Positions 16,247 through 63,067 of a DNA stretch of 64,000 bases are shown piece after piece. Position 1 is the stretch's first letter; each line of letters opens with the position of its first letter. The translations under genes were made by a program, and so were the position numbers. The stretch lies in the IMG/VR virus record IMGVR_UViG_3300045988_138358. One strand, written 5' to 3'. A model generated the notes under the pieces. That model did no database searches, was not told where the DNA came from, and worked only from the letters and a program-made list of their open reading frames with translations. Source of the stretch: a virus. Its lineage: Duplodnaviria > Heunggongvirae > Uroviricota > Caudoviricetes.

Positions 16247-17944
16247 TCACTTTTTTTCGTTAACCTTGCCTGTCAGCATGTCGATAGCACCTTCTTTGGC
16301 GCGAGTCAGACGCAGGCGGGTGAAGTAGTTTTCACCGTTGCGAGGATGTACTTCGTTGATGGCACTGCCCCAGAGGGTGGTACGGTTAACGAGAGACGGA
16401 TTGGTTTCGTGCACGTAAGGGATTGCTGGGACTGCATCACCAGCAATCAGACCGGCTTTACCGATGCCTTCGCCACGCCCATAGAAGAAGATGTCATCCA
16501 GCCCGAAGTCATATCCCTGTGCCTGGAATTGCTCACAGACAGGTTGCGGCACTTCGTAAATACGAATCGTGCCAAACAGGGTGCCGATGTACTGTACATA
16601 CGGCGACTGAACGTAACCTGGTGCGATCTGGAAGTGCTGTGGAGGCAGAGAGCGCAGGAAGTTCGCGGCGTCACCACCAGCAAAGCCGCCACGAATACCC
16701 GTTGTCAGGGTACGATTTGCCATTTCTTGAGACAGAGCGTTTACTACGTGACGCAGGAGGCCGACCCAGGACTCATAGTTTTGAGCTTCCGGCAGAGCCA
16801 CATCAAATTCACGACCATAAACGGTATGGAATACCAGGGTGCGCAGACGCATGATGTCGGTTTCATGGGAGATCCAGTTACGCATCGCGGAGAACTGAAG
16901 TGCCGCTAATTCAAGGCCGTGCTCACGGCTTAAATCGGATGCGGACATTACCGTGTGTTCGGAAGCAATTACGTACTGGGACGGACGAACTTCGTACTTA
17001 CGCATAGCCTGGTTGATCACAGGAATCAGGCTTGGATTGCGCTCGATGTTAATTTCGACCTGAACAGCAATTTCAGTACCTTCTGGCGGAGCCTGGGTAA
17101 ATGTAATGTCAATGACACCAGTGTCATAGGCAACTTTGGCAGTCGCTGAGAAAGCATTACCTTTGCTGTCTTTAGCATTGAAATAAAGGTTGCCATCGCC
17201 GTCGTCAACTTTGGACGGTTTGCGGTTGATCAGCAGTTTGTTATAACCAGCGCGAAGCGGGCAGGATTGTCCCTCAAAATTTTGGATGTCGAACTGGAAG
17301 GTTTTGGTGCTGCCATCCCCTTTAGTGGAAAGGGTATACAGGCGCTTCATTTGAGAATAAACACCAGCTGACTGCATATTCAGTTCGTCACCTTGTTTGA
17401 AGGTGCCGAATTTTGTGCCTGCTACGTTGACCAGTTCATAAATATTTGACTCGTCACGATCACAAGGAACAAAAGTACAGGCATCACTGGTAGCAGCGCC
17501 CAGAGAGGCAGGCAGTATTAGTGCAGCATATTGAGCAACTTTCATTACGCCGTCAGAGCTACGCATTGATTGCGCGACAGACTCAAACATTGCCTTACCC
17601 GTGCCTTCATGGGTATCACTGGCACATTCAGTCATCAGGCGTTCAAGAGCCATGTGTGCGTTCGCCAGGATGTCACTTGCCGGGTAATGACCATGTTGAC
17701 GTTTATACTCATGCAGAGACATAGCCCACCCACCAGTGATCTGACGAGCGACCTCTGGATTTACGCCTTCAAACATAGGCACTTTCTGGATTGCTTTATC
17801 CAGGTTTTCCATCATTACTGCCTGGTCAGCAATCATGTTGCCTGCTGCATCGGTGGTCGGATCGACGGTCATAGCCATGACGCTTGCCGCCCGATTCATA
17901 ATCTCGCGCTCGCGATCACGAGCTGGCTGAATGTTTTTATTCAC
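16247..17944 (-). CDS. major capsid protein (candidate)
   Basis: ORF track 565 aa; first gene of a minus-strand late operon upstream of the sheath; assignment by size and position. Confidence 0.4.
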   Translation of the reverse strand: MNKNIQPARDREREIMNRAASVMAMTVDPTTDAAGNMIADQAVMMENLDKAIQKVPMFEGVNPEVARQITGGWAMSLHEYKRQHGHYPASDILANAHMALERLMTECASDTHEGTGKAMFESVAQSMRSSDGVMKVAQYAALILPASLGAATSDACTFVPCDRDESNIYELVNVAGTKFGTFKQGDELNMQSAGVYSQMKRLYTLSTKGDGSTKTFQFDIQNFEGQSCPLRAGYNKLLINRKPSKVDDGDGNLYFNAKDSKGNAFSATAKVAYDTGVIDITFTQAPPEGTEIAVQVEINIERNPSLIPVINQAMRKYEVRPSQYVIASEHTVMSASDLSREHGLELAALQFSAMRNWISHETDIMRLRTLVFHTVYGREFDVALPEAQNYESWVGLLRHVVNALSQEMANRTLTTGIRGGFAGGDAANFLRSLPPQHFQIAPGYVQSPYVQYIGTLFGTIRIYEVPQPVCEQFQAQGYDFGLDDIFFYGRGEGIGKAGLIAGDAVPAIPYVHETNPSLVNRTTLWGSAINEVHPRNGENYFTRLRLTRAKEGAIDMLTGKVNEKK

Positions 17945-18056: not shown

Positions 18057-18088
18057 TGTTATGTGATTTAATTTTAGTTTTCTAACAC
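18057..18088. promoter_or_regulatory. operator-like site (degenerate TGTTATG-N17-TCTAACAC) in the divergent region between the capsid gene and 18103
   Basis: Recurrent motif, see findings. Confidence 0.45.
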
Positions 18089-35978: not shown

Positions 35979-35989
35979 TGTTAGAAAAC
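35979..35989. promoter_or_regulatory. operator-like half-site TGTTAGAAAAC overlapping the ref stop codon
   Basis: Recurrent motif. Confidence 0.35.
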
Positions 35990-36567
35990 TAATTTATCAA
36001 TTCAATCGCCATCTGATACAACGTCATTTCATCGGCATTGTGCCGCATGAAATCTGCTTTTCCGCCTATTTTTCCATCAGCATGAACAGGGACCAGCCAG
36101 GGATATTGTTCTCGGACCTCGGCTGGCGCTGCGTACTGGTGGTGCCATTTACACAAAGGGAGGACATATTTATGCGCGTTCTCTGCCGTTCTCCCGAAGA
36201 TATGGTGCAGGGATACCACTGGGCTATGTTGCCCGTGAATATGGCAGGCAATGCAGGGGAGAGTACCGATAGCGGTCTGTATCCGGCGTTCATCGGCTGT
36301 GAGTGATCTGCCCTTCAGGCCGCGTGACGTGCGTGTTTTTTTGGGCGGAGCGGATACCGCTTTATCTTTTCTCCGCTGTTCATATTGCTTTGCTTTTTCA
36401 ATTTTCTTTTGCCGATATTCAGGCGATGCGGCTTTTTCTCTCGCTCGCTGCTGCTGGCGTTGAGCTTGTTGAAGGCGCTTTGCCCTTTGTTCCTCTCGCC
36501 AGGCTGGGTCAGCCAATTTTTGCATGGCTTTTTGTCTCTGTTTCTCCCAATAACTCTGTTTCTGCAT
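35989..36567 (-). CDS. ref: Ref-like HNH endonuclease (P1 recombination enhancement function family, tentative)
   Basis: ORF track 192 aa; Lys/Arg/Gln-rich N-terminus plus C-terminal Cys/His nuclease-like core. Confidence 0.5.
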   Translation of the reverse strand: MQKQSYWEKQRQKAMQKLADPAWREEQRAKRLQQAQRQQQRAREKAASPEYRQKKIEKAKQYEQRRKDKAVSAPPKKTRTSRGLKGRSLTADERRIQTAIGTLPCIACHIHGQHSPVVSLHHIFGRTAENAHKYVLPLCKWHHQYAAPAEVREQYPWLVPVHADGKIGGKADFMRHNADEMTLYQMAIELIN

Positions 36568-36615: not shown

Positions 36616-36645
36616 TGTTAGATATTCAAAATTGATTTTCTAACA
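36616..36645. promoter_or_regulatory. operator-like inverted repeat TGTTAGA-N16-TCTAACA
   Basis: Between divergent ref and the 36688 operon. Confidence 0.55.
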
Positions 36646-38468: not shown

Positions 38469-38791
38469 TGACCACATCTCATTCTGCAATTACCCAGGAA
38501 AAAGCCTTCCACATACTCGAACGATTAGAAACGCTCGCTACGGAGGAGAAGATATCCCCGGAGATGCTGGTCGAGTGCAGCCGTGTGATATTGCGTCGCA
38601 AGAACGACATCGCGCGGCTGACATCTGGCGCACCATCCGTATCAGCCAGTCCAACGCTTTATTGCAGCTTCTGCAACAAATCCCAGCACACCGTTAAAAA
38701 GTTAATTGCCGGGGACAACGCTTTCATCTGCAACGAGTGCGTGAAAGATTGCAACAACATTATCCAGGAAGAGCAAAGGGAATCAGCATGA
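38465..38791 (+). CDS. protein with C-terminal ClpX-type zinc-binding domain
   Basis: ORF track 108 aa; [39 protein letters not shown] is near-identical in pattern to the N-terminal zinc finger of E. coli ClpX as I recall it; no AAA+ module follows. Confidence 0.6.
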
Positions 38792-40711: not shown

Positions 40712-40741
40712 TGTTAGATTGTTGATTTTAATTTTCTAACA
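40712..40741. promoter_or_regulatory. operator-like inverted repeat TGTTAGA-N16-TCTAACA
   Basis: About 40 nt upstream of the 40784 gene. Confidence 0.55.
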
Positions 40742-47274: not shown

Positions 47275-48369
47275 TCATTCAATGATTTTTTCGGCTGTCA
47301 GCCAGCTAATTTCGTGCCTGTCTTTCGGCGGTTTTAGCATGTGAGCATATTCAGCGACATGCTCCCACGGAATTGTTTTTGCCCACTCAACGATAGCATT
47401 GTGATCTGCAGTGAAGAGTGGAATAGTGTGCGATTTCAACCATTCTAATGTCGTGACGCCATGTTTTTTGGCGTGGTGCTGCGCATGATGCCGGGCTATC
47501 ACTCGTAATGGCATTGTCCATTCACTACCATCAGGCATCGAAAAGCGCATTGTCTTCGGCATATCTGATTCAAGAACAGCCTCCCTAATACCAGGGAACT
47601 CACCAAGAATCATACGACGATAGTCATCACTATTTCGCCCGCCATACCTTTCGGCAAAATGATCAAGATATTCTTGGGTAATAAATGGTGAATCCTCCGC
47701 ACTCAGCTTAATGGCTTTATATACACCACTCGGATTATCTTCAGCTAAAGCACGTCCATGATGTGAATCATAAAAAAAGCCTATTTCCTCTGGTGACGGA
47801 ATTGAAGTGAGCAATATGCGTGAATCACCACTAGTCATGCTTGCCCACACAATGCTGTATGCCCGATCGCTGATATGTGCGGAATCCACAATAATGAATA
47901 AAAGATGGTCGGCGTAGTGACCTGCAATGCTATCTTCATAGTTAAGGCGGTAGTTACAAAAGCACATTCCCCAAAATTCATTGAACATCAGACCGCTATC
48001 ACCGACCTTAAAATACTCAATGATAAAAGGTTGTTTTTTCAGCAATGCCTCCCAACATTGCCACACATATGCAACAATTCCTCTTTTGCAAACATTTGAT
48101 TTTGGATAAACAATTACTGTCCGGGAATCAGGATACATAATCGTATAAAGGGTACTAATAACAGCAAGCACTTGCGGTCGTCCGATCCCATACGGAGTGG
48201 TGACAGTAGCTTTTGCATTATTGGGCTGTATAGCTTCAACAATTTGTTGTTGCTGGTGGCTTAAATCAATATCAAACAATTCTTTTGCTGCCAGTACCCA
48301 ATTGTCTTTATATTTCTCCACCAGCGACAGCCAGCGCGGATCTTTATAAATATTGCTCTTAGTCGCCAT
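47275..48369 (-). CDS. terminase large-subunit ATPase-domain paralog with degenerate Walker A and B, no nuclease domain
   Basis: ORF track 47275-48660; likelier start ATG 48369. Aligns by eye with the PacB-like protein at 53517-55025, but GHGTGKS is PYGIGRP and LDEAS is VDSAH. Confidence 0.6.
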   Translation of the reverse strand: MATKSNIYKDPRWLSLVEKYKDNWVLAAKELFDIDLSHQQQQIVEAIQPNNAKATVTTPYGIGRPQVLAVISTLYTIMYPDSRTVIVYPKSNVCKRGIVAYVWQCWEALLKKQPFIIEYFKVGDSGLMFNEFWGMCFCNYRLNYEDSIAGHYADHLLFIIVDSAHISDRAYSIVWASMTSGDSRILLTSIPSPEEIGFFYDSHHGRALAEDNPSGVYKAIKLSAEDSPFITQEYLDHFAERYGGRNSDDYRRMILGEFPGIREAVLESDMPKTMRFSMPDGSEWTMPLRVIARHHAQHHAKKHGVTTLEWLKSHTIPLFTADHNAIVEWAKTIPWEHVAEYAHMLKPPKDRHEISWLTAEKIIE

Positions 48370-49126
48370 CTGCCACTTCCTTAACTTCTTCTTTGGCCTG
48401 TTCTGCAATCGCCGCACGGCATTTCGCCCTGGCCGTAGCGATTGCTTCAGCACGCACATCATCAGGAATCGTTGACGTGATATACATATCCAGTTCTTCG
48501 GCGCGGAACACTGTTTGGTCCAGATATTCGCGTAGCATCCAGGTAAATTCGAAATCACACGCGATAATCTCTGCGCTACCTTCTGCACCATTTGGGAAAT
48601 GAATAAAAGCCTGTTTAGCCAAACCGATAACACGACATGCGGTTGCCAAAACAGCGGCAACCAGGTTTACATTTTCACACGCTACGGGCTGATTAACGCC
48701 GGAGATTACTCCATTTAACTGTCGGTTATATGGAAGGTAGTTTGAGATGCGTTCTACGCGCCATGTGCCAGTCAGGCTGCCATTCTTAAAGATAATTGGT
48801 GTAACGGATAGCCCAAGCTCGCGTATAAGTCGTTGCGCTATAGCAGGATCATTAAACATGTCTAATGCTACACATTCGAAAGACTGTGCAAGGGTAAACA
48901 GTTCTTCCAGAGAGTAGTCTTTGCCCCTGGCGGTGATGTAACGATGAACGCCGCTTTCTGCATCACTCCATATAGCTACGCCATGCTCTTCATTCAGCTC
49001 TTCATTAAAGCCGAGATACGTCATGATAGTACGTTCAATCGTGTCAAACGGCAGTGACATGTCGGCGTTAACAGCCACCAGCAGGCCATTACGCAAGCGG
49101 TATTGAATTGCTTTAGTATTTTCCAC
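48359..49126 (-). CDS. hypothetical protein
   Basis: ORF track 255 aa; overlaps the downstream gene start. Confidence 0.35.
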   Translation of the reverse strand: MENTKAIQYRLRNGLLVAVNADMSLPFDTIERTIMTYLGFNEELNEEHGVAIWSDAESGVHRYITARGKDYSLEELFTLAQSFECVALDMFNDPAIAQRLIRELGLSVTPIIFKNGSLTGTWRVERISNYLPYNRQLNGVISGVNQPVACENVNLVAAVLATACRVIGLAKQAFIHFPNGAEGSAEIIACDFEFTWMLREYLDQTVFRAEELDMYITSTIPDDVRAEAIATARAKCRAAIAEQAKEEVKEVADGD

Positions 49127-50977: not shown

Positions 50978-50987
50978 GTGTTAGAAA
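50978..50987. promoter_or_regulatory. operator-like half-site GTGTTAGAAA upstream of the 50920 operon
   Basis: Recurrent motif. Confidence 0.4.
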
Positions 50988-50993
50988 TTTAAT

Positions 50994-52379: not shown

Positions 52380-52390
52380 TGTTAGAAAAC
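52380..52390. promoter_or_regulatory. operator-like half-site TGTTAGAAAAC just upstream of the 52408 gene RBS
   Basis: Recurrent motif. Confidence 0.4.
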
Positions 52391-52407
52391 TAAATCGAGT
52401 AGGAATA

Positions 52408-53445
52408 ATGAGTAAGAAGTCGATCGAGAAAGAGTACAAACGGTTCCTGCAAACCGCTGAACGGTGGAAAGAGCTGGTGGTCGCAAACTCTGTTTTCCAT
52501 GATACCAGTTATTCCGGCGAGGAATTCCGCCATGTTGCACTAACACATGATCAGAATGTGCTAGAAGAAGCTGAAAAGTGCCTCACAGAATGGAAAGCCT
52601 TTGTTGACTTGTGCCGTAACGCTGACGGCAAAGCGTCTAACATTGTTGAGTCTGTATATTCTCCGATCCCATTCATTATCGAGGACACAAATCAAAGCAC
52701 GCATATTGTTGTGCAAAGCGCGACCACCACCCGCTCATTTACGCGCGAAAATCTGCTCAAAAAATATGATGCAATTATAAAGAAAAGCCTGAAAAACAAG
52801 ATATTTTCGCAGATTGTTGGTGCACTTGAAGAAGAGCGCCGTTTTTTCGCATCAGAACCTGAAGGGGAAGTTTACCGGGCGCGCAAAGATGGATACACAG
52901 ATGTAGTGCTTACAACAAACATTGAAGGCAGCAATGCTCTGTCACGATTCAGGGTAGGCGCACACGGAGCCTTAGTGTTCGCAAAACTTCCGAACACCAC
53001 AGTGCCCGTTGTTAATAATGTCGGCGAACGTCGCAGCATTACTATTTATTCTGGGGTTGAGTCGATACCTTGCGGCCTGCTTGGTGACTTTAGTCTCTAT
53101 CGCGTTCGCGATCTGGAGAAACACCAACCAAGCTATGTTGCGAAGTCATACATCTTGCGAAACATCGACATCCGCAATGAGAGCTTAAAGAACAAATCAG
53201 CCAAAATGCTTGAGGAAGCCGATCCGGCTATTCGCCATATCATTGAGCGTAAAATACAGACAGCACGCGAAGCGATGGCGAGACTGAATAAAATGGATCT
53301 GGAGTTGTTAGACGTAATGATGACATCCGGAGATGACCTGACAGGCATAAAACTGACAGACGCGCGGAAAAGATACGGTAAAACCATAGAAGAACGTTAC
53401 GGGTTCACTTTCTCCCAAACACAGCACGCCGCTAAACTCTGGTAA
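52408..53445 (+). CDS. hypothetical protein
   Basis: ORF track 345 aa; AT-rich upstream region; between lox-cre and the terminase genes. Confidence 0.4.
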   Translation: MSKKSIEKEYKRFLQTAERWKELVVANSVFHDTSYSGEEFRHVALTHDQNVLEEAEKCLTEWKAFVDLCRNADGKASNIVESVYSPIPFIIEDTNQSTHIVVQSATTTRSFTRENLLKKYDAIIKKSLKNKIFSQIVGALEEERRFFASEPEGEVYRARKDGYTDVVLTTNIEGSNALSRFRVGAHGALVFAKLPNTTVPVVNNVGERRSITIYSGVESIPCGLLGDFSLYRVRDLEKHQPSYVAKSYILRNIDIRNESLKNKSAKMLEEADPAIRHIIERKIQTAREAMARLNKMDLELLDVMMTSGDDLTGIKLTDARKRYGKTIEERYGFTFSQTQHAAKLW

Positions 53446-53516: not shown

Positions 53517-55025
53517 TCAAATATCCAGATCTGGCATTTCTACATCTGCAAGAACCTGATCGCGGAAGGTAGCCATTTCAGCGCCGATATCTTCATTAGC
53601 AGGAACATAGTCCACCAGCATTGTAAAGCAGTAGGTATCCCATCGGTCAGGTGATTTGATGTTCAGCTTTTGCCGCATGTGCTCCTTGCGCATCATCGCC
53701 ATCTTCCCTTCTTCATTAAGTAAAAAGGGGATTTTTGACGCTTGCTCTGCCGTTTTAGGGTCGCTGTCTATTCGCATACGACCTGACTTTATGGCATCAC
53801 GAGCCATAATATTTGCGTAGGCACGCTGGTTAACAAAACGCTCCTTGTCTTTGTTCGAAAACATGGGTTTCCCCCACCGAATCCGTACCGGATTAGCCCC
53901 ACGGCGCACCAGCTGCGCACAGGTATCTGAACCAAAACCGTCTGCGTCAACCGCGATTGTAATATTCGGGTATTTATCCGGCGTGCATTCGTTGTATATA
54001 AAGTCAGCAAAAGCCAGCGGGTCCATAGTCCCTGGCATTTCCATTACCTTAAAGTTAACAACACGCCGCTTTTCCCGGTGACCAGACACTTTACAGATAT
54101 TAAGAACTGACTTGTCTCGCCCGTTACCAACGTCAGCAGTAGCCACCCATCCCCAGTTTTTCTCCAACAACACCTTGCGCCGCGCAGCGCGATCGCATTC
54201 ATCACGACCAAGCAAATAGCCGTTAATCTCCCGAGGAAACTGACCAAGAACCTTGACCATGTACTCAATAGAATCGCGCCCGCCATATTCTAGGAGTTTC
54301 TGCCTGATGAATTGTGGTGTGACGAACGGTGATTCTTCTGAGTTAAGAACAATTGCTGTCCAGATCCCTTTCGGGTTGTCTGGGGTTTTAGCTTGAGAAT
54401 GGTGCGAATCGTAGAAATAACCACTTGGCCTTGTTGGCTGGGATAGCATCAACATTCGGTTATCTTCTTCAGTCAGAGCGCCAGTCATTACGCCGATCGC
54501 TTTATCAGATATACCTGATGCTTCATCCAGAATTAGAAGCAAATGTGCCGCGTGCTCCCCCGCCAGAGCTTCTTCGTTACCGAGTCGATAGCCTTTGCAG
54601 AGAACTTCCCAGATCCCCTTTCGAGAGCGTTCATAAAACATGGTGTCAGACAGGACAAAATAGGTCTGTAACCACCCATGACGCTTAACGGCATTCGCCC
54701 AATACTGTTTAACGTATTTGAATACACCTGTCTTAACCTGACCTATTTTGTTAGCAACAATGATGACACGGGCATCGGGGAACAGAATCAAATAAATCAG
54801 CAACAACATAGCCGTTAGCGACGATTTCCCTGTACCGTGACCAGAGGTAACAGTGGTTCTGCTCCCTTTTTGCTGTACGGACTGGATAATCTCCTGCTGC
54901 TGGTGGGAGGGAAACATCCCGAATATATCAACAACAGCCTGGGTAAAGTTGTAGCGGTATTTGATTACCATATCGCGCCAGCGTGGATCGCTGGTGACGC
55001 ATTTAATCTTGCGCCCACCAGCCAT
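53517..55025 (-). CDS. terminase large subunit (PacB-like)
   Basis: ORF track 502 aa; intact Walker A SGHGTGKS and Walker B ILDEAS; start overlaps upstream stop (TAATG). Confidence 0.8.
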   Translation of the reverse strand: MAGGRKIKCVTSDPRWRDMVIKYRYNFTQAVVDIFGMFPSHQQQEIIQSVQQKGSRTTVTSGHGTGKSSLTAMLLLIYLILFPDARVIIVANKIGQVKTGVFKYVKQYWANAVKRHGWLQTYFVLSDTMFYERSRKGIWEVLCKGYRLGNEEALAGEHAAHLLLILDEASGISDKAIGVMTGALTEEDNRMLMLSQPTRPSGYFYDSHHSQAKTPDNPKGIWTAIVLNSEESPFVTPQFIRQKLLEYGGRDSIEYMVKVLGQFPREINGYLLGRDECDRAARRKVLLEKNWGWVATADVGNGRDKSVLNICKVSGHREKRRVVNFKVMEMPGTMDPLAFADFIYNECTPDKYPNITIAVDADGFGSDTCAQLVRRGANPVRIRWGKPMFSNKDKERFVNQRAYANIMARDAIKSGRMRIDSDPKTAEQASKIPFLLNEEGKMAMMRKEHMRQKLNIKSPDRWDTYCFTMLVDYVPANEDIGAEMATFRDQVLADVEMPDLDI

Positions 55026-56856: not shown

Positions 56857-56886
56857 TATTAGAAAATTAATTCCATTCATCTAACA
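56857..56886. promoter_or_regulatory. operator-like inverted repeat TATTAGA-N16-TCTAACA
   Basis: Between the 56887 gene stop and the 56778 gene start. Confidence 0.5.
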
Positions 56887-57279
56887 CTACCAGCGAGATA
56901 AGCGAACGACGTGTTTTACCTTAGCGATCCACTTACCACGTGAGTTATTAATTACGGCCTGCGCCACCTTTAAGCTGACTTCAAAATCAGCCTTACGACC
57001 ATCAGAATCCACCAGCGTTGCACCGTCTATTTCCGGCAGGCTTAAATAATCCTGTTCTACCTCTAATGGCATTGACGGCTCTCTGAATGGTGTCAATTGC
57101 CGAGCTTTCCAGATAAAGCGAACTCTCAATCCCCTATAAGCCATTACCATGTAGCCTGTTATCGTGCTCTTATGGCCTGCATCAGTACGCGCAGCATTAC
57201 ACGATACAATCTTACAGGTGACGATATTCCACTCCACGTTGGAGACTTCGTGAATGCTTAATTTTGTTGTCTCGTACAT
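56887..57279 (-). CDS. hypothetical protein
   Basis: ORF track 130 aa. Confidence 0.3.
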   Translation of the reverse strand: MYETTKLSIHEVSNVEWNIVTCKIVSCNAARTDAGHKSTITGYMVMAYRGLRVRFIWKARQLTPFREPSMPLEVEQDYLSLPEIDGATLVDSDGRKADFEVSLKVAQAVINNSRGKWIAKVKHVVRLSRW

Positions 57280-57854
57280 CAGAATGCCTCCCAGTCAGTT
57301 GCGATAATATCCACGCCAGTTGCGAACCAGTCTGTCTGCGCCTGTAAATCCCCATTCATCATTACCAGGCGAGGCATAACCATCACATCGCACCCTTCCA
57401 CAATATCGAATGCCTCTTCCGGCAAGAATTCGAAGAGCTTTTCTTTGCTGCCAATGCTGCCACGGAACATCGATAAATAGCTCCCTTTAGGCCATGATGC
57501 CCGGCGGGCATCCAGCCCCTTCATCATCCAGAACATGGCGGCAGAAAAATTGATGTTCTTTTTGGCGATGAAAACATTATTGGCTTCTGTTTGCTTCAGA
57601 AACTTAATTAGCCTTGCCATCGACTCGGATAACGCTACGTATGGCTCATGATTGGCTGCGGACACGCTCACACCATGTAATCCAACACTGACTACCGTCA
57701 TATCGCCGCTTTGAGCGGTTTCAATGTTGACACCTTTGCGAACTAACGAGGCATAAAGTTCCTCTCGCTTTTGTGTCCAGCGTTCCCGCTGACCGATGAA
57801 GTCACTCAATATGAGGTCTGCTTCTGCATACGCGTTATCGTTCGCCGTTAACAT
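57279..57854 (-). CDS. fusion protein with C-terminal DUF2829-like (Tad2-like) domain, more divergent
   Basis: ORF track 191 aa; C-terminal half (AAMFWMMKGLDARRASWPKG .. PRLVMMNGDLQAQTDWFATGVDIIATDWEAF) follows the same pattern. Confidence 0.4.
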   Translation of the reverse strand: MLTANDNAYAEADLILSDFIGQRERWTQKREELYASLVRKGVNIETAQSGDMTVVSVGLHGVSVSAANHEPYVALSESMARLIKFLKQTEANNVFIAKKNINFSAAMFWMMKGLDARRASWPKGSYLSMFRGSIGSKEKLFEFLPEEAFDIVEGCDVMVMPRLVMMNGDLQAQTDWFATGVDIIATDWEAF

Positions 57855-57974
57855 AACGTCTCCTTTTTACACGCGCGACCATCCCTCGGTTAAACCGATA
57901 GAGATGTCGAAACTTCGTATTAATTAAGGGTTACAGCCTGAGCGGCTATATGATGAATTGAAAGGAGTTGTGGC

Positions 57975-57989
57975 GGTGGTGCCTCCACC
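57975..57989. ncRNA. short hairpin GGTGG-TGCCT-CCACC
   Basis: One of three hairpins with identical loop and covarying stems. Confidence 0.3.
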
Positions 57990-58307
57990 TGCCAGGTTAG
58001 CCACTCCTGGCGACGTCACTTATCAGAACGTAGTGAATGAAAATGGCTTCGTCACGAGCGCATAGCCGCAATTACCACAACGGAAACGGCGCTCACGCTA
58101 ATTAAACGCCTTTTCCTGTTGTGCGCCGTACTCTTCCGGCTGTCACACCGAATCGCCAGGGTGGTGAGTCCTCGGTCCGACGATATGAACGGGGCTTGCA
58201 CATTCCGGCTACCTGGTTTGTTGCCTGAGCTAGGGGAAAAGGTAACCCCTTTAACGTCACCAGACCGCTAACGACGCATGTGCCATACGCCGTGTTACAA
58301 CCAAATA

Positions 58308-58383
58308 TGGTGGCCCCTACCGGACTTGAACCGGTGACCGTGCGATTATGAGTCGCCAGCTCTAACCACTGAGCTAAAGGGCC
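58308..58383 (-). tRNA. tRNA with CAU anticodon (Ile2 lysidine-type or Met)
   Basis: Hand-folded cloverleaf, 7-bp acceptor stem, T-loop TTCAAGT, CCA encoded; close to E. coli ileX as I recall it. Confidence 0.75.
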
Positions 58384-58392
58384 AGATTACTG

Positions 58393-58521
58393 TTAATTCC
58401 GCTTACGCTTTTTGCCAGAACCGCGTAAGGCTTTTGCCGCTTGCTCGATCCCATATGCAACCACCAGCAGAAATAAAAATGTCCAACCAGGGTTCTTATC
58501 GGCAAAGGCCCAAAAATCCAT
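58393..58521 (-). CDS. small hydrophobic protein, 42 aa
   Basis: Hand-found; one hydrophobic helix and basic tail; ends 10 nt before the CAU tRNA. Confidence 0.25.
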   Translation of the reverse strand: MDFWAFADKNPGWTFLFLLVVAYGIEQAAKALRGSGKKRKRN

Positions 58522-58572
58522 CACTTGCAGCTACCTTTTAAGACAAAACGCCATTGCTGTTAGATTGCGGTG

Positions 58573-58587
58573 CCTGGTGCCTCCAGG
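58573..58587. ncRNA. short hairpin CCTGG-TGCCT-CCAGG
   Basis: Second of three hairpins with identical loop and covarying stems. Confidence 0.3.
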
Positions 58588-58795
58588 TGACGTTAACCAG
58601 TTAACAATTAACGCCGGGATGTTTGATTTAACCACTAAGGAGGATTGTTTTAACTGTTCCGCGTGCGCTTAGCCGCATTCACCGCAATGGTAAGAGCACT
58701 TGGCTGGCTGGGCGGCGATGACGCCTGTACGCATTTGGTGATCCGGTTCTGCTTCCGGCATTCGCTTAATTAGCCAAATACTCTTAACGTTGCGC

Positions 58796-58882
58796 TGGCG
58801 GAGAGTAATGGAATCGAACCATCATCGCTTGCGCAATGGGACGGTTTTCAAGACCGCTTGAGCACCATGCTCCCTACTCTCC
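58796..58882 (-). tRNA. tRNA-Ser-like (UGA anticodon, long variable arm), divergent
   Basis: Hand-folded: 7-bp acceptor stem, anticodon loop CTTGAAA, long variable arm, T-loop TTCGATT, discriminator G, CCA encoded; D-arm unusual. Confidence 0.55.
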
Positions 58883-59028
58883 GGCCGTTGTGGTGGCCGG
58901 TACTGAATCTCCGGCATACGGTGCAGCCAATTAGGACTACGGACGATCACCGCTCGCGAAAGGGAAGATTTGCGGCCGCATTTCCCTAACATCCAAGAAA
59001 GCTATCGCATCAGTCTGCGAATCCACCA

Positions 59029-59118
59029 CAACGTTGAGAACACTGGTTGTCACGCTGCAACGCAACATTTATTCGTAGATTGGGATATGACCCCGTTACG
59101 TCAGTGTTCTCAACGTTG
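59029..59118. ncRNA. long hairpin: perfect 17-bp inverted repeats around a 56-nt interior
   Basis: Arms at 59029-59045 and 59102-59118 are exact reverse complements. Confidence 0.4.
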
Positions 59119-59265
59119 TAGTACCGGTTACGGTTCCGGCCAGGCCTCTTCCTCAACGGGGTATTCTCCATACGGACTACCGTTTATTGGTCGTTCCTGC
59201 GGTTTATGTTGTGAAGCCAGATGCTTATCTTCTGGTTGCTTCAAAGAGCTGCACTTCATCACAAC

Positions 59266-59339
59266 GGTAAGGGTACTTCGTAGGGATTCGAACCCTCTGC
59301 CAAGCACGGCGATCTCCGACGTCGCAAAATACCCTTACC
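59266..59339 (-). ncRNA. tRNA-like element: 10-bp closing stem around a canonical T-arm, no canonical cloverleaf
   Basis: Closing stem GGTAAGGGTA/TACCCTTACC with internal T-arm-like hairpin; I could not fold it as a standard tRNA. Confidence 0.35.
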
Positions 59340-59347
59340 TGTTGTGT

Positions 59348-59423
59348 TGGTGCCGATTAACGGACTCGAACCGCTGACATCCTGCTTACAAGGCAGGCGC
59401 TCTACCAACTGAGCTAAACCGGC
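59348..59423 (-). tRNA. tRNA-Thr (UGU)
   Basis: Hand-folded cloverleaf; anticodon loop CTTGTAA; T-loop TTCGAGT; CCA encoded. Confidence 0.75.
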
Positions 59424-59425
59424 AT

Positions 59426-59502
59426 TGGCGATGGTGGGTGGATTCGAACCACCGACCGACAGCTTAGAAGGCTGCTGCTCTATCCTACTGAGCTACACCA
59501 TC
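59426..59502 (-). tRNA. tRNA-Arg (UCU)
   Basis: Hand-folded cloverleaf; perfect 7-bp acceptor stem; anticodon loop CTTCTAA; 2 nt from tRNA-Thr. Confidence 0.75.
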
Positions 59503-60005
59503 ACTTGCCGGTTACGTCTCCGGCGAGGGCTTCCACCTCCGTATGCTTTTCGGCGCACCGCGCCCTGGCTGCAATTCGGTAACAGGGGATGCACAACCCT
59601 GGCTTCCAGCGTGATTAGCGCCTTCAGCATGACGGGATATACCCGTAACCAACAAACTTTCCCATATACCATCAAACAATGGCTGTTACGCGGGAGGGAC
59701 GTAACAGGTAAGGGCGCTGACCAGAAAGACCTGACCCTTCTCATTCATCTGGTTAATCACACCAGCGCCCTTGCCTGTTATGCCTCCCCGTTCCCTAATA
59801 CACAGACGGGGACACTCTGCGGTCGATTTTTTGACGGGGGACGACTCATACCCCGTGGCGTCTGGCTTCTTAGGCCGCTACCATCATCAGATCATCGTTT
59901 GCATTTACTTTAATGGTCGGTTTCTAAACCGCCGCAAAGCCGCTAACCATGACGAAAACCCTAAAAAAGCCCACCCGAAGATGGGCAAATACGCTACATC
60001 TCACA

Positions 60006-60084
60006 CAAGAAAGAAGCCGACTGCCTGAGCTGGATTCACTTTCAAATGCCCGCAGAAAGGGAACACAAGTCGGCTTCTTTCTTG
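60006..60084. ncRNA. long hairpin: perfect 17-bp inverted repeats around a 45-nt interior
   Basis: Arms at 60006-60022 and 60068-60084. Confidence 0.4.
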
Positions 60085-60212
60085 ATGCGGCACTCTCTCC
60101 GCCCGTCACCGCTCTGTCTCGGTTGTCGCGTTTGCCACGCCAGCCATAACGAGGTTTAAAGTCTTTGCACGTTTCCATCACTCGACTGCCGTCTGTGGCT
60201 GTTCGTTGCAGC

Positions 60213-60227
60213 GGGGGTGCCTCCCCC
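60213..60227. ncRNA. short hairpin GGGGG-TGCCT-CCCCC
   Basis: Third of three hairpins with identical loop and covarying stems. Confidence 0.3.
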
Positions 60228-60300
60228 TGGGGATATCCCCGGCCTTACCCCATTCTTTCAAGACACAATGCAAGGCCGCATCCGCATAGGTGCATTACCG

Positions 60301-60367
60301 CAACATTAAGGAGACTTAGGGCAAAAGGTAATCGCCACAAAAAAATCCCTATGCCTCCTTAATGTTG
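60301..60367. ncRNA. long hairpin: 13-bp perfect inverted repeats, 41-nt interior with nested TAGGG/CCCTA pairing
   Basis: Seen directly. Confidence 0.35.
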
Positions 60368-60375
60368 AGGATGTG

Positions 60376-60434
60376 CATTGATGATGATTCGATGCGGCGA
60401 GTCCCGTTACTCTCTGCCGGACCATCATCAATGA
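60376..60434. ncRNA. hairpin: 11-bp perfect inverted repeats (CATTGATGATG / CATCATCAATG), 37-nt interior
   Basis: Seen directly. Confidence 0.35.
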
Positions 60435-60576
60435 ACATCTTAAAAAGACCTTCCGTGGCTCAACATGTCTTGTCGTTTACTCCGTAAAGTGCTCTCTCTG
60501 AAACCACTTTACGCACTAAACCTGCTGAACTTTGGCTTGCTCGGTGCCAAAGCGAATCCCTGTATGCATGTAATTT

Positions 60577-60584
60577 TCTAACAC
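60577..60584. promoter_or_regulatory. operator-like half-site TCTAACAC in the tRNA island
   Basis: Recurrent motif. Confidence 0.35.
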
Positions 60585-60709
60585 TTTAATTTGTTATTTG
60601 CTGGTGGGCGAACAACAACCAATAAGTGACTATCAAGCCCAGCAAGCGAAATGTGGCAACGCTCCACCAGCAAGGAAAATTCTAAGTTAAGTTACTCTCA
60701 CAATCAATA

Positions 60710-60740
60710 TGTTCGTTTGGTGAAATTAGATTTCTAACAC
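60710..60740. promoter_or_regulatory. operator-like degenerate palindrome (TGTTCGT-N16-TCTAACAC) at the 3' end of the 60742 gene
   Basis: Recurrent motif. Confidence 0.4.
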
Positions 60741-60741
60741 A

Positions 60742-61950
60742 TTATTTCCCATAAAGATCTTCTACGCCCCCATTCTTCTTGTCCCATTCGTTAGCCCACA
60801 CCCGGCAGGCATCAATAATTTCTTGACGACGGTCGCCCTGCATAAAGGGGATGCTTTCATGAAAACTACTTGGGATACAGGCCACGCTGAATACGGTATC
60901 AAACGCAGTCTGTTTGATAGCTTCCAACGTCTCTGGGCGCATTTTCAATTCATCGATCGGCGCATCCTTAGAGTCCATAATCCGGCGATGCAGGCGCGGG
61001 AAATCAGTCTCCAGGTACGCCATAATTTTATCTGCCAGGCATTCGTCTATATCGGTATTCCAGTCCGTTTCGAAGCCGGGCAGGCGATAGTAAAGCGGCG
61101 TTCCCCATACTGATGGGATCACATCCATCGTCAGCAGGCGGTTGGTTCTAATTTGTTGATGGTAATTAGCCGTCAACAGAGCTTCACCACGCTGACCAGT
61201 CTCCGCAACCAGACCATGCGGGTACTCATGGATATAGGCAATAGCATCCACCCCGTCATACATGAGCGGGAATGTCTCTGGCCTTTGTCCCATACCACAA
61301 GCGCGGTTCAGATCATGACCAAGCTGTGAGCACTCTCGTTTCAGCGTTTCAATAATGTTCTGCGCTGCTGCTAACTTTTTACGCAGTGTGACGCCTTCGC
61401 CTTGATACTTAATGCATTGCTGATTCAGCTCTGTTAAACGCTCTTTTAGTTCCCGACGCTCTCTTTTCAGCGCACGGTTATCCTTCTCCGCAACATCCAG
61501 TCGTTTTGACAGACTGGCTGGATAGTCTTTTTTGTAACGACTCAAATCGGCTTCTGCGGATTTGCGCAGTGTGTTTGCCTGTTCAAGACGCGCTTCCAGA
61601 TTGCCGATCTCACTACGCATATTCGCGGCAAATTGATTAACAGCATTGCCAAGACTTTCAACTGTCGCTGATACGCCTGTGACTTGTGAAAAACGGATCA
61701 AGCCATCATTAACGGCTTGTTGATATTCCTCAAACTGATCCACCAGCTTGTTGTAATCAACCGTCCCTTCCTCAAGTAGCTGGTTGATCTCCGCGACCAG
61801 GTTATCAGTAGTGGCAATGACGCTCTCATGTAGCCGTCTAGACAGGTCATCCCCCGGATTCCGCTTTTGAATAAGGGCGATCTGTGTCCGCAGCGTTTCA
61901 ATCGCGGCTGAGATGATTTCCAGATTAGAAGTATCAGTTTGTTGACTCAT
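60742..61950 (-). CDS. hypothetical protein, N-terminal coiled coil plus C-terminal globular domain
   Basis: ORF track 60742-61962; the second ATG at 61950 has a better RBS. Confidence 0.4.
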   Translation of the reverse strand: MSQQTDTSNLEIISAAIETLRTQIALIQKRNPGDDLSRRLHESVIATTDNLVAEINQLLEEGTVDYNKLVDQFEEYQQAVNDGLIRFSQVTGVSATVESLGNAVNQFAANMRSEIGNLEARLEQANTLRKSAEADLSRYKKDYPASLSKRLDVAEKDNRALKRERRELKERLTELNQQCIKYQGEGVTLRKKLAAAQNIIETLKRECSQLGHDLNRACGMGQRPETFPLMYDGVDAIAYIHEYPHGLVAETGQRGEALLTANYHQQIRTNRLLTMDVIPSVWGTPLYYRLPGFETDWNTDIDECLADKIMAYLETDFPRLHRRIMDSKDAPIDELKMRPETLEAIKQTAFDTVFSVACIPSSFHESIPFMQGDRRQEIIDACRVWANEWDKKNGGVEDLYGK

Positions 61951-61982
61951 TGCAGTTCCCATTGTTTTTGCAAAATTAGTTT

Positions 61983-61990
61983 TCTAACAT
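61983..61990. promoter_or_regulatory. operator-like half-site TCTAACAT ~25 nt upstream of the 61962/61950 gene
   Basis: Recurrent motif. Confidence 0.4.
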
Positions 61991-62064
61991 ATTTTATTAG
62001 TATGAGAACAAGATCGAAAGATGTGATAAACAAAAAACCCGCTAATCGGCGGGTTTTTGAGCGG

Positions 62065-62379
62065 TTATTGTGTCATTGCCTGGTAGATAAAATACACGAT
62101 GCATACCGGTACGATAGCCCATTGCAGCAATGAAAGCAGCCTCATGGCTGTCATTGGAGTAACTCCGTCTACGTATTCCTTCTCTGACATTTTCCCTAAC
62201 CAACTAACCGACAAAAGGGTCGAGTTCTCCCCCATTTCCAGCTCCCTGAGGGCTTCCCGGATTAAAGGCGCTGTTACCACCTTGCGGGCAGTGTTGAGCG
62301 TAATGCTCCGCGTCCTCCCGGCGTCATCGGCAAACGCCAGGTTCACATGATATTTTTTGCTCAATGTACAAACTCCCAA
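62065..62379 (-). CDS. hypothetical protein with C-terminal transmembrane helix
   Basis: ORF track 104 aa. Confidence 0.3.
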   Translation of the reverse strand: MGVCTLSKKYHVNLAFADDAGRTRSITLNTARKVVTAPLIREALRELEMGENSTLLSVSWLGKMSEKEYVDGVTPMTAMRLLSLLQWAIVPVCIVYFIYQAMTQ

Positions 62380-62575: not shown

Positions 62576-63067
62576 TTAATCAAGACAAACATATTCCGTG
62601 ATAGCTTTTATGGCTTCAGCGGCACTGCGCGCCTCAAAGCAGTAGTAACCTGCTTCGGTGAGGCGAGTCATCCAGACGAGTTGTTCGGGAGTCAGGCGAT
62701 TTCTCCCATGTTTCATCTCAATGCGCATTCCGTGGTATCCCCCACAAGCAAGGTCTATAGAAAGATCGGGATATCCCTTCTTTTGGCCCTCTGCCACCAT
62801 TTTTATTGCCGTCCTTATGCCTCGCAGACCGCCGTTTGGAGTGGCGTGTGTATGCTCATACACATAGCGCATATTGCGATACAACCAATCCAGGACGCGT
62901 ACCTGCTCGTAATGCTCATGGTTCCTTTTGATTAGATCTGGGTTTTTCTCCAGTTCTCTGAGAGCTGCGGCATGTGGTGATGTTTCAGAATATTCACTGC
63001 GACGCCTTCTTTTTCTCGCTATTTTTCTAACACACCCATTGATAGTAAATAAGCGAAATAATAACAA
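62576..63067 (-). CDS. VRR-NUC domain nuclease (start uncertain)
   Basis: ORF track 163 aa from a TTG; C-terminal ~100 aa show a VRR-NUC-like pattern (TPNGG, GYPDLSI, IEMKHGRNRLTPEQ); an operator-like site lies inside the annotated N-terminus. Confidence 0.45.
   Translation of the reverse strand: MLLFRLFTINGCVRKIARKRRRRSEYSETSPHAAALRELEKNPDLIKRNHEHYEQVRVLDWLYRNMRYVYEHTHATPNGGLRGIRTAIKMVAEGQKKGYPDLSIDLACGGYHGMRIEMKHGRNRLTPEQLVWMTRLTEAGYYCFEARSAAEAIKAITEYVCLD
63026..63033. promoter_or_regulatory. operator-like half-site TCTAACAC
   Basis: Recurrent motif. Confidence 0.35.

What the first reader, a model, noticed from the sequence alone, without database searches (positions are those of the whole stretch)
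60742..61962. Unknown coiled-coil protein expressed from an operator-controlled promoter beside the tRNA island
A ~400-aa protein with a ~220-residue coiled-coil N-terminal half and an unrecognised C-terminal domain is the first gene of a minus-strand cluster that also holds a VRR-NUC nuclease. No family came to mind.
Basis: inference. Interest (0 to 1): 0.35.

Follow-up and report, generated by a model that had tools for sequence, protein, structure and literature searches.

The report
PmgS-family early phage protein, mislabelled scaffold
The gene is the D6-type copy of phage P1's pmgS: it has a name but no known function, it looks repressor-controlled, and its predicted DNA-binding tail and its neighbours in other phages point to DNA handling, not to the "head scaffold" role the databases give it.

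Summary
The ORF at 60742-61962 (-) is real. The window is a D6-like P1-family phage-plasmid, and the gene is the ortholog of D6 gene 9, annotated "putative prohead scaffolding protein, similar to P1 pmgS" (94% aa). It matches PHROG 1660 "PmgS-like head morphogenesis" at E 9e-141. It is colinear with P1 PmgS at only 20% identity.

The N-terminal half is helical with a heptad pattern, the gene lies in a minus-strand cluster with a VRR-NUC gene, and a tRNA island lies 1.2 kb downstream. It is the last gene of that cluster, not the first. A terminator separates it from pmgR. Its own -10 abuts a 15-bp motif that occurs 11 times in the window (about 1 expected), including at sites where P1 has C1 operators.

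New here: the "unrecognised" C-terminus ends in an RNAP alpha-CTD/RAD51-NTD-like (HhH)2 domain. In distant phages the family sits just downstream of RecT/exonuclease genes or beside DNA methylases, never among head genes. P1 pmgS deletion is viable, and the capsid protein carries its own N-terminal propeptide.

The scaffold label is therefore unsupported. The best reading is a dispensable early DNA-associated accessory protein. The gene is ordinary; the reinterpretation is modestly interesting.

The parts
60742..61950 (-). pmgS-type CDS, 402 aa from the conserved ATG at 61950. The open frame extends to an upstream ATG at 61962 (406 aa), which D6 and most relatives lack. Residue numbers in this report count from 61962.
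61297..61935 (-). N-terminal helical, coiled-coil-like half (residues 10-222). Four long helices with a heptad pattern. Less conserved than the C-terminal half.
   Evidence: only coiled-coil noise
60964..61296 (-). Central conserved beta/alpha domain (residues 223-333): strands 230-284 and helices 303-333. Family-wide conserved positions are G223, H268, W286, P289, P322 and R327. No match to any known fold or family.
60763..60963 (-). C-terminal (HhH)2 domain (residues 334-400), like the RNAP alpha-CTD and the RAD51 N-terminal domain. The canonical second hairpin KGhGxKTA of the wider family is degenerate here (IPFMQGDRRQEI).
61975..61989 (-). Operator-like site TGTTAGAAAACTAAT, one base after the -10 and so over the expected transcription start. 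Nearly invariant in loci whose protein is only 47-75% identical.
61991..61996 (-). Candidate -10 hexamer TAAAAT (TATAAT in locus L029). A weak candidate -35, TTTCGA, lies at 62014-62019.
   Evidence: read from the sequence. The consensus scan did not call it a full sigma-70 promoter.
62033..62058 (-). Intrinsic terminator (10-bp stem, T-run) between the pmgR homologue and pmgS. It is conserved, with base changes on both sides of the stem, in related loci.
62065..62379 (-). pmgR homologue (31% identity to P1 PmgR over 64 aa; D6 gene 10).
62576..63067 (-). pmgM homologue, a VRR-NUC nuclease, upstream in the same minus-strand cluster.
60725..60739 (-). Second operator-like copy, TGTTAGAAATCTAAT, 3 nt after the pmgS stop. 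A third copy lies at 60569-60583. Both face the non-coding leader and the tRNA island.
52408..53445 (+). C1-type repressor homologue, the presumed binder of the operator-like motif. It has a motif copy 14 nt upstream of its own ATG (52380-52394).
58308..59502 (-). tRNA island downstream of pmgS: Arg-TCT, Thr-TGT, Ser-TGA and Met/Ile2-CAT.

Best explanation
This is the D6-lineage ortholog of phage P1 pmgS, carried on a D6-like P1-family phage-plasmid.

Shown:
- It is its own transcription unit. A terminator ends the pmgR transcript. A -10 element follows, immediately abutted by a 15-bp asymmetric motif that recurs at regulatory sites across the element.
- The protein has a helical, coiled-coil-like N-terminal half, a conserved central domain of unknown fold, and a C-terminal (HhH)2 domain of the RNAP alpha-CTD / RAD51-NTD type.

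Inferred:
- The motif is the operator of the element's C1-type repressor. The gene would then be silent in the plasmid prophage and switched on early after induction or infection, like P1 pmgR-pmgS under Op86.
- The protein self-associates through the helical half and contacts duplex DNA without sequence specificity through the (HhH)2 domain. The central domain holds a partner.
- It acts as a dispensable accessory factor on replicating or recombining phage DNA. In distant phages this is the job slot just downstream of the RecT/exonuclease pair. It does not act as a capsid scaffold.
For: Identity. 87% nt and 94% aa identity to D6 gene 9. PHROG 1660 at E 9.3e-141. Colinear with P1 PmgS. pmgM...pmgR-pmgS synteny.

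Regulation.
- Terminator at 62058-62033.
- The motif TGTTAGAAANYTAAT occurs 11 times against 1.09 expected.
- Copies lie upstream of the c1, lpa and ref homologues, pmgS and the tRNA leader. P1 has annotated C1 operators at c1, lpa, pmgR-pmgS and the tRNA/ban leader. A C1 operator at ref is recalled from memory; the record stretch read does not cover ref.
- The block CTAATAAAAT-TGTTAGAAAAYTAA stays nearly invariant while its flanks diverge, down to 47% protein identity.
- The P1 operator consensus itself is absent, which fits a C1 homologue only 20% identical to P1 C1.

(HhH)2 domain.
- The only local Foldseek hits are alpha-CTD and RAD51 NTD (TM 0.65-0.79, rmsd about 2 A over 55-60 residues).
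- 12 of 65 family members hit Pfam HHH_5 and 8 hit RNA_pol_A_CTD, all at the C-terminus.
- hhalign aligns residues 334-400 to E. coli RpoA 255-323 (E 1e-4).
- The family profile hits alpha-CTD and RAD51 NTD chains at E about 2.5e-5.

Context.
- In Vibrio and Aeromonas phages the gene lies in the early region beside DNA methyltransferases and RecE/RecT.
- In 44 of 68 IMG/VR loci an exonuclease lies upstream on the same strand. In 35 of the 36 YqaJ-type loci it ends within 47 nt of the gene (94 nt in L063), and RecT usually precedes it.
- Other loci show a DEDD exonuclease, C5/N6 methylases, YfdQ or an integrase.

Not a scaffold. P1 delta-pmgS is viable. The capsid homologue keeps the 120-aa propeptide and the cleavage site.
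Against: - No experiment links any PmgS protein to DNA.
- The window protein itself has no Pfam HhH hit, and all Foldseek E-values are above 0.1.
- In the D6 and P1 clades the canonical GhG hairpin is degenerate. DNA binding may be weakened or replaced by protein binding.
- The recombination-module context comes from relatives only 15-25% identical. P1 and D6 have no RecT/exonuclease pair beside pmgS.
[quoted passage not shown] A morphogenetic link is therefore not excluded by C1 control alone.
- The protein that binds the motif has not been shown. One copy lies upstream of the major capsid gene (18073-18087), where no C1 operator is annotated in P1 in the stretch read here.
- The P1 knockout showed no phenotype, so it reveals no function.
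Confidence: 0.5

Rival explanations
1. Prohead scaffolding or head-morphogenesis protein, as annotated in D6 and PHROGs. A long helical protein that nucleates capsid assembly and is then expelled.
For: The D6 record names gene 9 'putative prohead scaffolding protein' and PHROG 1660 is filed under head and packaging. The protein is helix-rich. [quoted passage not shown]
Against: - The P1 in-frame pmgS deletion yields infectious virions, and CRISPRi knockdown gives an EOP of 1.2. A sole scaffold should be essential.
- PmgS is not mentioned anywhere in the main text of the P1 virion and morphogenesis study. Its authors state that no scaffold is known and propose the capsid protein's N-terminal 120 residues instead.
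- The window's capsid homologue keeps that propeptide and the E|SVA cleavage site.
- The promoter is of the operator type.
- The protein ends in an (HhH)2 domain.
- None of the roughly 85 diverged loci examined shows head genes next to the family.
Confidence: 0.06
2. Alpha-CTD mimic that acts on transcription. The C-terminal domain imitates the RNA polymerase alpha C-terminal domain. It either titrates host activators or occupies UP-element-like AT-rich DNA, and so redirects host transcription early in lytic growth.
For: The best sequence and structure matches include the RNAP alpha-CTD itself. One family member passes the Pfam RNA_pol_A_CTD gathering score (25.6 against 23.8 bits). The gene appears to be early and repressor-controlled.
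Against: RAD51-NTD and generic HHH_5 match equally well, so the similarity is to the (HhH)2 fold and not specifically to alpha. E. coli alpha R265 aligns with E344 in this protein. The conserved neighbours are nucleases, recombinases and methylases, not transcription factors.
Confidence: 0.12
3. Anti-defence or host-takeover effector that does not need DNA binding, for example an inhibitor of a host nuclease or immune system. In this reading the coiled coil and central domain are the working parts.
For: In this element the cluster is flanked by Ulx-like and DarB anti-restriction genes upstream and by a gene with a Tad2-like (anti-Thoeris) domain downstream. The gene is dispensable in the laboratory host, as counter-defence genes usually are. 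The position just downstream of the recombinase/exonuclease pair, in the early-left operon, is the kind of region where lambdoid phages keep accessory genes; in lambda that operon also holds the RecBCD inhibitor Gam, next to bet and exo (lambda gene order and Gam function are from general knowledge).
Against: P1 delta-pmgS shows normal anti-restriction against EcoA, EcoB and EcoK. No PADLOC or other defence-related profile matches beyond coiled-coil noise. The (HhH)2 domain is conserved across the family.
Confidence: 0.17

Closest known systems
Phage P1 PmgS (P1_gp093) and phage D6 gene 9 product (PHROG 1660)
   Same: Full-length colinear homology: 94% to D6 and 20% to P1 (E 6e-14). Same length and same layout of a coiled-coil half followed by a conserved C-terminal half. 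It follows pmgR and lies downstream of the VRR-NUC gene pmgM. It sits under a repressor-operator type promoter. P1 annotates the C1 operators OpmgRa/b as controlling pmgR and pmgS.
   Different: In P1, pmgR and pmgS share one promoter. Here and in D6 a terminator and a separate -10/operator precede pmgS. The operator sequence differs from the P1 consensus. P1 has pap and pmgT-V downstream, whereas here a 1.2-kb non-coding leader and tRNAs follow.
(HhH)2 DNA-binding domains: RNA polymerase alpha C-terminal domain (PF03118), RAD51/RadA N-terminal domain, HHH_5 (PF14520)
   Same: The last ~65 residues are predicted as four helices (343-350, 357-361, 365-370, 377-397). They superpose on alpha-CTD and RAD51 NTD at about 2 A. 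The similarity is also seen at family-profile level, at E about 2.5e-5 against PDB sequences. The wider family carries the canonical KGhGxKTAxxI hairpin.
   Different: The domain is fused to a long helical half and a novel central domain rather than to a polymerase or an ATPase. In the D6 and P1 clades the second hairpin motif is degenerate. DNA binding is untested.
Accessory genes that follow the recombinase/exonuclease pair in lambdoid early-left operons (the lambda exo-xis region, e.g. the coiled-coil protein Ea22; recalled from general knowledge, not tested here)
   Same: Same position. In distant relatives the PmgS-like gene directly follows RecT and a YqaJ- or RecE-type exonuclease and lies before a methylase, xis or int. 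It is dispensable for plaque formation.
   Different: No sequence similarity was tested or is claimed. In P1/D6-type plasmid prophages there is no RecT/exonuclease pair next to the gene.
Phage prohead scaffolding proteins (the label in the D6 record)
   Same: Helix-rich, elongated and of similar size.
   Different: The gene is not in a head-gene module. The P1 ortholog is not essential. The protein has an (HhH)2 domain. The capsid protein carries its own propeptide.

Membership tests
PmgS family (PHROG 1660; P1 PmgS / D6 gp9) | Full-length match to the family profile | tested here: met
   phrog_1660 E 9.3e-141, residues 5-405 against profile positions 1-404 of 405. A profile built from the 11-sequence D6-clade alignment A1 (the window protein and its close homologues) recovers 89 representatives of mostly 350-470 aa.
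PmgS family (PHROG 1660; P1 PmgS / D6 gp9) | Colinear homology to P1 PmgS itself | tested here: met
   BLASTP 20% identity over residues 15-399 against 17-415, E 6e-14. tblastn at E 1e-5 did not reach P1, so the relation is distant.
PmgS family (PHROG 1660; P1 PmgS / D6 gp9) | Synteny: directly downstream of pmgR, in a cluster with the VRR-NUC gene pmgM | tested here: met
PmgS family (PHROG 1660; P1 PmgS / D6 gp9) | Transcription from a C1-repressor-controlled promoter (P1 Op86a/b) | tested here: inconclusive
   An enriched operator-like motif abuts the -10 and is phylogenetically conserved. A C1 homologue is present. Binding and repression are not shown.
Prohead scaffolding protein | Encoded within or next to the head module (portal, protease, major capsid protein) | tested here: not met
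   The neighbours are pmgR, a VRR-NUC gene, ulx and tRNAs. The capsid gene is 43 kb away at 16247-17944. No head genes lie beside relatives.
Prohead scaffolding protein | Required for production of infectious particles | not testable with these tools
   From the literature on the P1 ortholog only: the deletion makes infectious virions, and CRISPRi knockdown gives EOP 1.2 (PMC9024508 and PMC10695390).
Prohead scaffolding protein | The capsid protein lacks its own scaffolding (delta) domain | tested here: not met
   The capsid homologue aligns with P1 gp23 from residue 4. This includes the 120-aa propeptide and the E|SVA processing site (site from PMC9024508).
(HhH)2 domain (Pfam HHH_5 / RNA_pol_A_CTD) | Significant profile similarity | tested here: inconclusive
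   Met at family level: 12 and 8 of 65 members, best E 8.4e-7 and 5.3e-7; one member is above the gathering score; the family profile against PDB gives E 2.3e-5. The window protein alone gives no Pfam hit. hhalign gives E 1e-4 at probability 57%.
(HhH)2 domain (Pfam HHH_5 / RNA_pol_A_CTD) | Fold of two helix-hairpin-helix units | tested here: met
   A high-confidence model (pLDDT 92-98 over residues 311-400) superposes on alpha-CTD and RAD51 NTD. TM normalised to the target is 0.65-0.79 and rmsd 1.8-2.3 A. Whole-chain Foldseek E-values are not significant.
(HhH)2 domain (Pfam HHH_5 / RNA_pol_A_CTD) | Canonical G-h-G hairpin signature | tested here: not met
   The wider family has KGhGxKTAxxI. 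This protein has IPFMQGDRRQEI, and the P1 clade has NYDMTPEDAKTL.
(HhH)2 domain (Pfam HHH_5 / RNA_pol_A_CTD) | Binds nucleic acid | not testable with these tools
   Needs EMSA or ChIP.
SMC / Rad50 / JetC-type proteins (weak hits in NCBIfam and PADLOC) | ABC-type ATPase head domains flanking the coiled coil | tested here: not met
   Matches cover only the coiled-coil arms. Scores of 12-27 bits compare with cutoffs of 567-1087 bits. No ATPase domain is found.
P1 C1 operator (ATTGCTCTAATAAATTT) | Match to the P1 17-bp consensus | tested here: not met
   0 matches with up to 3 mismatches in 64 kb. The element uses a different motif, TGTTAGAAAAYTAAT, which shares only a TTAGA core with the reverse complement of the P1 site.

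The most novel reading that the evidence does not exclude
The PmgS family is an unrecognised class of phage DNA-transaction accessory proteins. Its layout is a coiled-coil oligomeriser, a new central domain and an (HhH)2 DNA-binding tail. It works with the phage recombination nuclease (RecT/YqaJ or RecE in lambdoid phages, the VRR-NUC PmgM in P1/D6). Possible actions are tethering or protecting DNA ends and intermediates, or blocking host nucleases. If so, the 'head morphogenesis' label carried by every member in PHROGs and GenBank is wrong.
Probability: 0.3. Interest if true: 0.5.

Novelty: already known. Interest (0 to 1): 0.3.

Why it matters
The gene itself is ordinary. Copies at 80-99.9% nt identity sit on 111 sequenced E. 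coli, Salmonella and Shigella plasmids (24 of them at 95% or more), and the family has had a name since the P1 genome paper.

What matters is the label. 'PmgS-like head morphogenesis' and 'putative prohead scaffolding protein' spread through automated phage annotation. Both conflict with the P1 knockout data, with the predicted (HhH)2 domain, and with a conserved position next to recombination nucleases and DNA methylases.

Correcting the label gives a testable lead for one of the conserved but uncharacterised genes of P1-type phage-plasmids. These elements are clinically relevant carriers of resistance genes. The lead also covers a recurrent unknown gene in lambdoid recombination modules.

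Tried and rejected
- Sequence search against PDB with the close-homologue profile gave only coiled-coil noise.
- The first AF2 model, from 11 sequences, was poor (pLDDT 62.6; 218-309 disordered). It was replaced by the 65-sequence model.
- Foldseek of the whole chain against PDB and BFVD gave no hit with E below 0.1. The central domain (223-333) matched nothing. A domain-only structure search was not possible with these tools.
- NCBIfam and PADLOC returned only SMC, Rad50, JetC and LmuB coiled-coil arms far below their cutoffs.
- The P1 C1 operator consensus is absent.
- A P1-type late-promoter box (AGTnAyTT-N4-TAnnnT) is not upstream of pmgS. One copy lies downstream at 60679-60696, but a slightly narrower form of the pattern (AGTnACTT), searched with one mismatch, is not enriched (4 against 2.95 expected). 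It is therefore not used as evidence.
- The ~140-aa ORFs that follow PmgS-like genes in several phages are not homologous to each other or to P1 Pap. The small ORF upstream in phiARM81mr is not PmgR.
- The genome-contig scan with a back-translated WHLEVRTN pattern gave 8 chance matches, none encoding a PmgS-like protein.
- The A6 clade was not found in IMG/VR.
- The D6 and P1 genome papers are not held, so the D6 authors' reason for the scaffold label could not be read.
- The Rfam scan of 57800-62200 found only the tRNAs and sub-threshold hits.
Full report
**What is there**

The ORF 60742..61962 on the minus strand (406 aa) exists exactly as described. The surrounding DNA is 87% identical to Escherichia phage D6, a P1-family plasmid prophage. 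The ORF corresponds to D6 gene 9, annotated [quoted passage not shown], and the protein is 94% identical to it.

It matches PHROG 1660 "PmgS-like head morphogenesis" end to end (E 9.3e-141). It aligns colinearly with P1 PmgS at only 20% identity (E 6e-14). Gene order is as in D6 and P1. In the direction of transcription it runs: ulx-like, a small ORF, pmgM (VRR-NUC, PF08774 26.1 bits), a small ORF, pmgR (31% to P1 PmgR), then pmgS.

So the gene is the last protein gene of the minus-strand cluster, not the first. Downstream come about 1.2 kb without long ORFs and then four minus-strand tRNAs at 59502-58308. Copies of the gene at 80-99.9% nt identity are present on 111 plasmid records of about 90 kb from E. 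coli, Salmonella and Shigella (24 of them at 95% or more), where it is annotated "hypothetical protein". D6 and most relatives lack the first ATG, so the conserved start is the ATG at 61950.

**Regulation**

A 10-bp-stem intrinsic terminator (62058-62033) follows the pmgR stop. About 35 nt further on lies CTAATAAAAT, which contains the -10 hexamer TAAAAT at 61996-61991. One base after it comes TGTTAGAAAACTAAT (61989-61975), and the ATG lies 25-37 nt beyond that.

The pattern TGTTAGAAANYTAAT occurs 11 times in the window with up to 2 mismatches, against 1.09 expected. No shuffle reached 11. The 9-mer core also occurs 11 times, against 0.59 expected.

Copies lie directly upstream of these genes:
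- the C1-repressor homologue (52380-52394; ATG at 52408)
- lpa (56857-56871, with an inverted partial partner)
- the ref homologue (36631-36645, also with a partner)
- an HNH/pdcB-like gene (40727-40741)
- the tRNA leader (60725-60739 and 60569-60583)
- the major capsid gene (18073-18087)

The P1 record annotates C1 operators at c1, lpa, pmgR-pmgS (Op86a/b, "controls expression of pmgR and pmgS") and the ban/tRNA leader. A C1 operator at ref is recalled from memory; the record stretch read here does not cover ref. The positional correspondence is therefore good.

The P1 operator consensus itself is absent. That fits a C1 homologue only 20% identical to P1 C1.

In ten loci whose PmgS proteins range from about 99% down to 47% identity, the terminator stem and the block CTAATA(A/T)AAT-nGTTAGAAAA-YTAA are nearly invariant while the flanks diverge. 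In locus L029 the -10 reads TATAAT. The three D6 sites are conserved as well.

I conclude, by inference, that pmgS here is a separate repressor-controlled early transcription unit with the operator over the transcription start. Repressor binding has not been shown. No full sigma-70 consensus promoter was called by the scan; the -35 is weak.

**The protein**

With 11 close homologues the structure prediction was poor. A profile search of 1.8 billion representatives found a modest family: 89 representatives, mostly 350-470 aa. A 65-sequence alignment then gave a confident model, with mean pLDDT 87.1 and pTM 0.58.

The model has three parts:
- Residues 10-222 form four long helices. Heptad periodicity is 5.5 sd above shuffles. 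The short breaks leave open whether this half is an intramolecular bundle or an intermolecular coiled coil.
- Residues 223-333 form a small beta sheet plus two helices. A few positions are conserved family-wide (G223, H268, W286, P289, P322, R327). There is no evident catalytic motif and no structural match.
- Residues 334-400 form four short helices.

Four lines of evidence identify this last part as an (HhH)2 domain:
1. The only high-probability local Foldseek hits, for both models, are RNAP alpha-CTD and the RAD51 N-terminal domain (TM 0.65-0.79, rmsd about 2 A, 55-60 columns). Phage proteins annotated as alpha-CTD appear in BFVD.
2. Of 65 family members scanned one by one, 12 hit Pfam HHH_5 and 8 hit RNA_pol_A_CTD (best E 8.4e-7 and 5.3e-7). 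These hits lie at the C-terminus, and one is above the gathering score.
3. hhalign of the family against E. coli RpoA 249-329 aligns residues 334-400 with RpoA 255-323 (E 1e-4).
4. The family profile searched against PDB sequences finds alpha-CTD (8syi_A 2.3e-5; 1doq_A 2.5e-5), RAD51 NTD (1b22_A 2.8e-5) and the Brr2 HhH module.

One caveat applies. The wider family has a textbook KGhGxKTAxxI hairpin. The D6 clade has IPFMQGDRRQEI and the P1 clade NYDMTPEDAKTL. The window protein alone gives no Pfam HhH hit.

**Why it is not a scaffold**

- Piya et al. scored P1 pmgS as non-essential, with a CRISPRi EOP of 1.2 (PMC10695390).
- Gonzales et al. built an in-frame P1 delta-pmgS. Only pacA and pmgA, B, C, G and R failed to give phage. 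All other knockouts made infectious virions with normal anti-restriction against EcoA, EcoB and EcoK (PMC9024508).
- The same paper states that no P1 scaffold is known. It proposes the 120-residue N-terminal part of the capsid precursor, which is cleaved at E120/S121.
- The window's capsid homologue (16247-17944, 44% identical) aligns from residue 4 and keeps the E|SVA site.

**Genomic context in distant relatives**

- In Vibrio phages douglas 12A4 and 1F273_PE002 the gene lies in the early region immediately upstream of a DNA methyltransferase. In 1F273_PE002 it is also beside YfdP/YfdQ.
- In Aeromonas phage phiARM81mr the order is RecE-type exonuclease, RecT, an integrase-like gene, a small ORF, PmgS-like, one ORF, N6-methylase ... 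xis, int.
- In the P1-like Aeromonas phage ST4 it follows a DUF4942/methyltransferase protein.
- Of 68 IMG/VR loci from two further clades, 36 have a YqaJ-like exonuclease just upstream on the same strand: in 35 it ends within 47 nt of the gene, in L063 94 nt. RecT usually precedes it. Eight more have a RecE-type exonuclease about 1.0-1.3 kb upstream.
- Sampled loci without these show a DEDD exonuclease, a C5 methylase, DUF2303/YfdQ plus a methylase, or an integrase.
- No head gene was seen next to any member.
- Many of these loci are related to one another, so they are not 44 independent observations. At least four lineages agree.

**Interpretation**

The best-supported reading is a dispensable, early, repressor-controlled, DNA-associated accessory protein. 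Its parts would be an oligomerising helical half, a partner-binding central domain and a non-specific duplex-binding (HhH)2 tail. It would act on replicating or recombining phage DNA.

Rivals are an alpha-CTD mimic acting on transcription, a counter-defence effector, and the annotated scaffold role. The counter-defence reading rests on the Ulx/DarB genes upstream and the gene with a Tad2-like domain downstream. I rate the scaffold role at about 6%.

The co-transcription of pmgS with the head-completion gene pmgR in P1 remains an unexplained link to morphogenesis.

**Verdict**

The object is an already known, named family of unknown function. The added value is the domain assignment, the context evidence against the database label, and a draft operator map. 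Interest is low to moderate.

Noticed in passing
window 59503-60741: About 1.2 kb between the pmgS stop and tRNA-Arg has no ORF longer than 85 aa. It carries two operator-like copies (60725-60739, 60569-60583). It also carries a sigma-70-like TTGATT-17-TAGAAT (60707-60679) that overlaps a P1-late-box-like AGTAACTT-4-TAGAAT. By position it corresponds to the P1 Oban / dicF-like / trnA-trnT leader. Rfam finds nothing significant there.
   Followed up: partly
window 18073-18087, 35979-35993, 36631-36645, 40727-40741, 50979-50993, 52380-52394, 56857-56871, 60569-60583, 60725-60739, 61975-61989: These ten sites are the operator-like copies of TGTTAGAAAAYTAAT among 11 pattern matches (1.09 expected); the 11th match, 38692-38706 (CGTTAAAAAGTTAAT, 2 mismatches), is weak and left out. 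Several have an inverted TCTAACA partner 15-17 bp away, like bivalent P1 operators. They probably form the immunity regulon of the C1 homologue at 52408-53445. Two copies lie at the 3' ends of the ref and cre homologues and point antisense.
   Followed up: partly
window 59426-59502 versus L001 5933-6008 (phage D6): The window has tRNA-Arg(TCT) where D6 has tRNA-Asn(GTT). ARAGORN places all D6 tRNAs on the minus strand and finds a fourth, tRNA-Met/Ile2(CAT). The D6 GenBank record lists three tRNAs on the plus strand. The tciA/tciB genes that lie between tRNA-Met and tRNA-Ser in D6 are absent from the window.
   Followed up: partly
window 58796-58883: The long-arm tRNA-Ser(TGA) scores 46.6 bits on the Rfam tRNA-Sec model, just under its gathering score of 47.
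   Followed up: no
window 57279-57854 (-): This 191-aa ORF between the tRNA island and lpa has a Tad2-like (Thoeris anti-defence 2) Pfam domain at E 1.5e-9, 38.7 bits against a cutoff of 25. It is a possible anti-Thoeris gene on the phage-plasmid.
   Followed up: no
window 47275-48660 (-) and 53517-55025 (-): Two ORFs both match PHROG 5902 and the terminase large subunit profile. One is the pacB homologue next to pacA. The other is a second PacB-like paralogue about 5 kb away.
   Followed up: no
window 16247-17944 (-): The major capsid homologue is 44% identical to P1 gp23. It keeps the 120-residue N-terminal propeptide and the E|SVA processing site reported for P1.
   Followed up: yes
window 58566-58686 (-): A sub-threshold match to the Rfam sRNA STnc100 (39.4 bits against a gathering score of 47, E 3.3e-6) lies between tRNA-Met and tRNA-Ser.
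   Followed up: no
loci L039-L041, L043-L045, L048, L049, L061-L101 (IMG/VR): A recurrent four-gene block in prophage-like contigs: RecT (about 280 aa), an unusually long YqaJ-like exonuclease (about 530-550 aa), a PmgS-like gene (about 380 aa), and a variable ~140-aa ORF.
   Followed up: partly
window 63024-63032 (-): A copy of the operator core TGTTAGAAA lies inside the 5' end of the annotated VRR-NUC (pmgM) ORF, which starts with TTG. The true start of that gene may lie downstream of this site.
   Followed up: no
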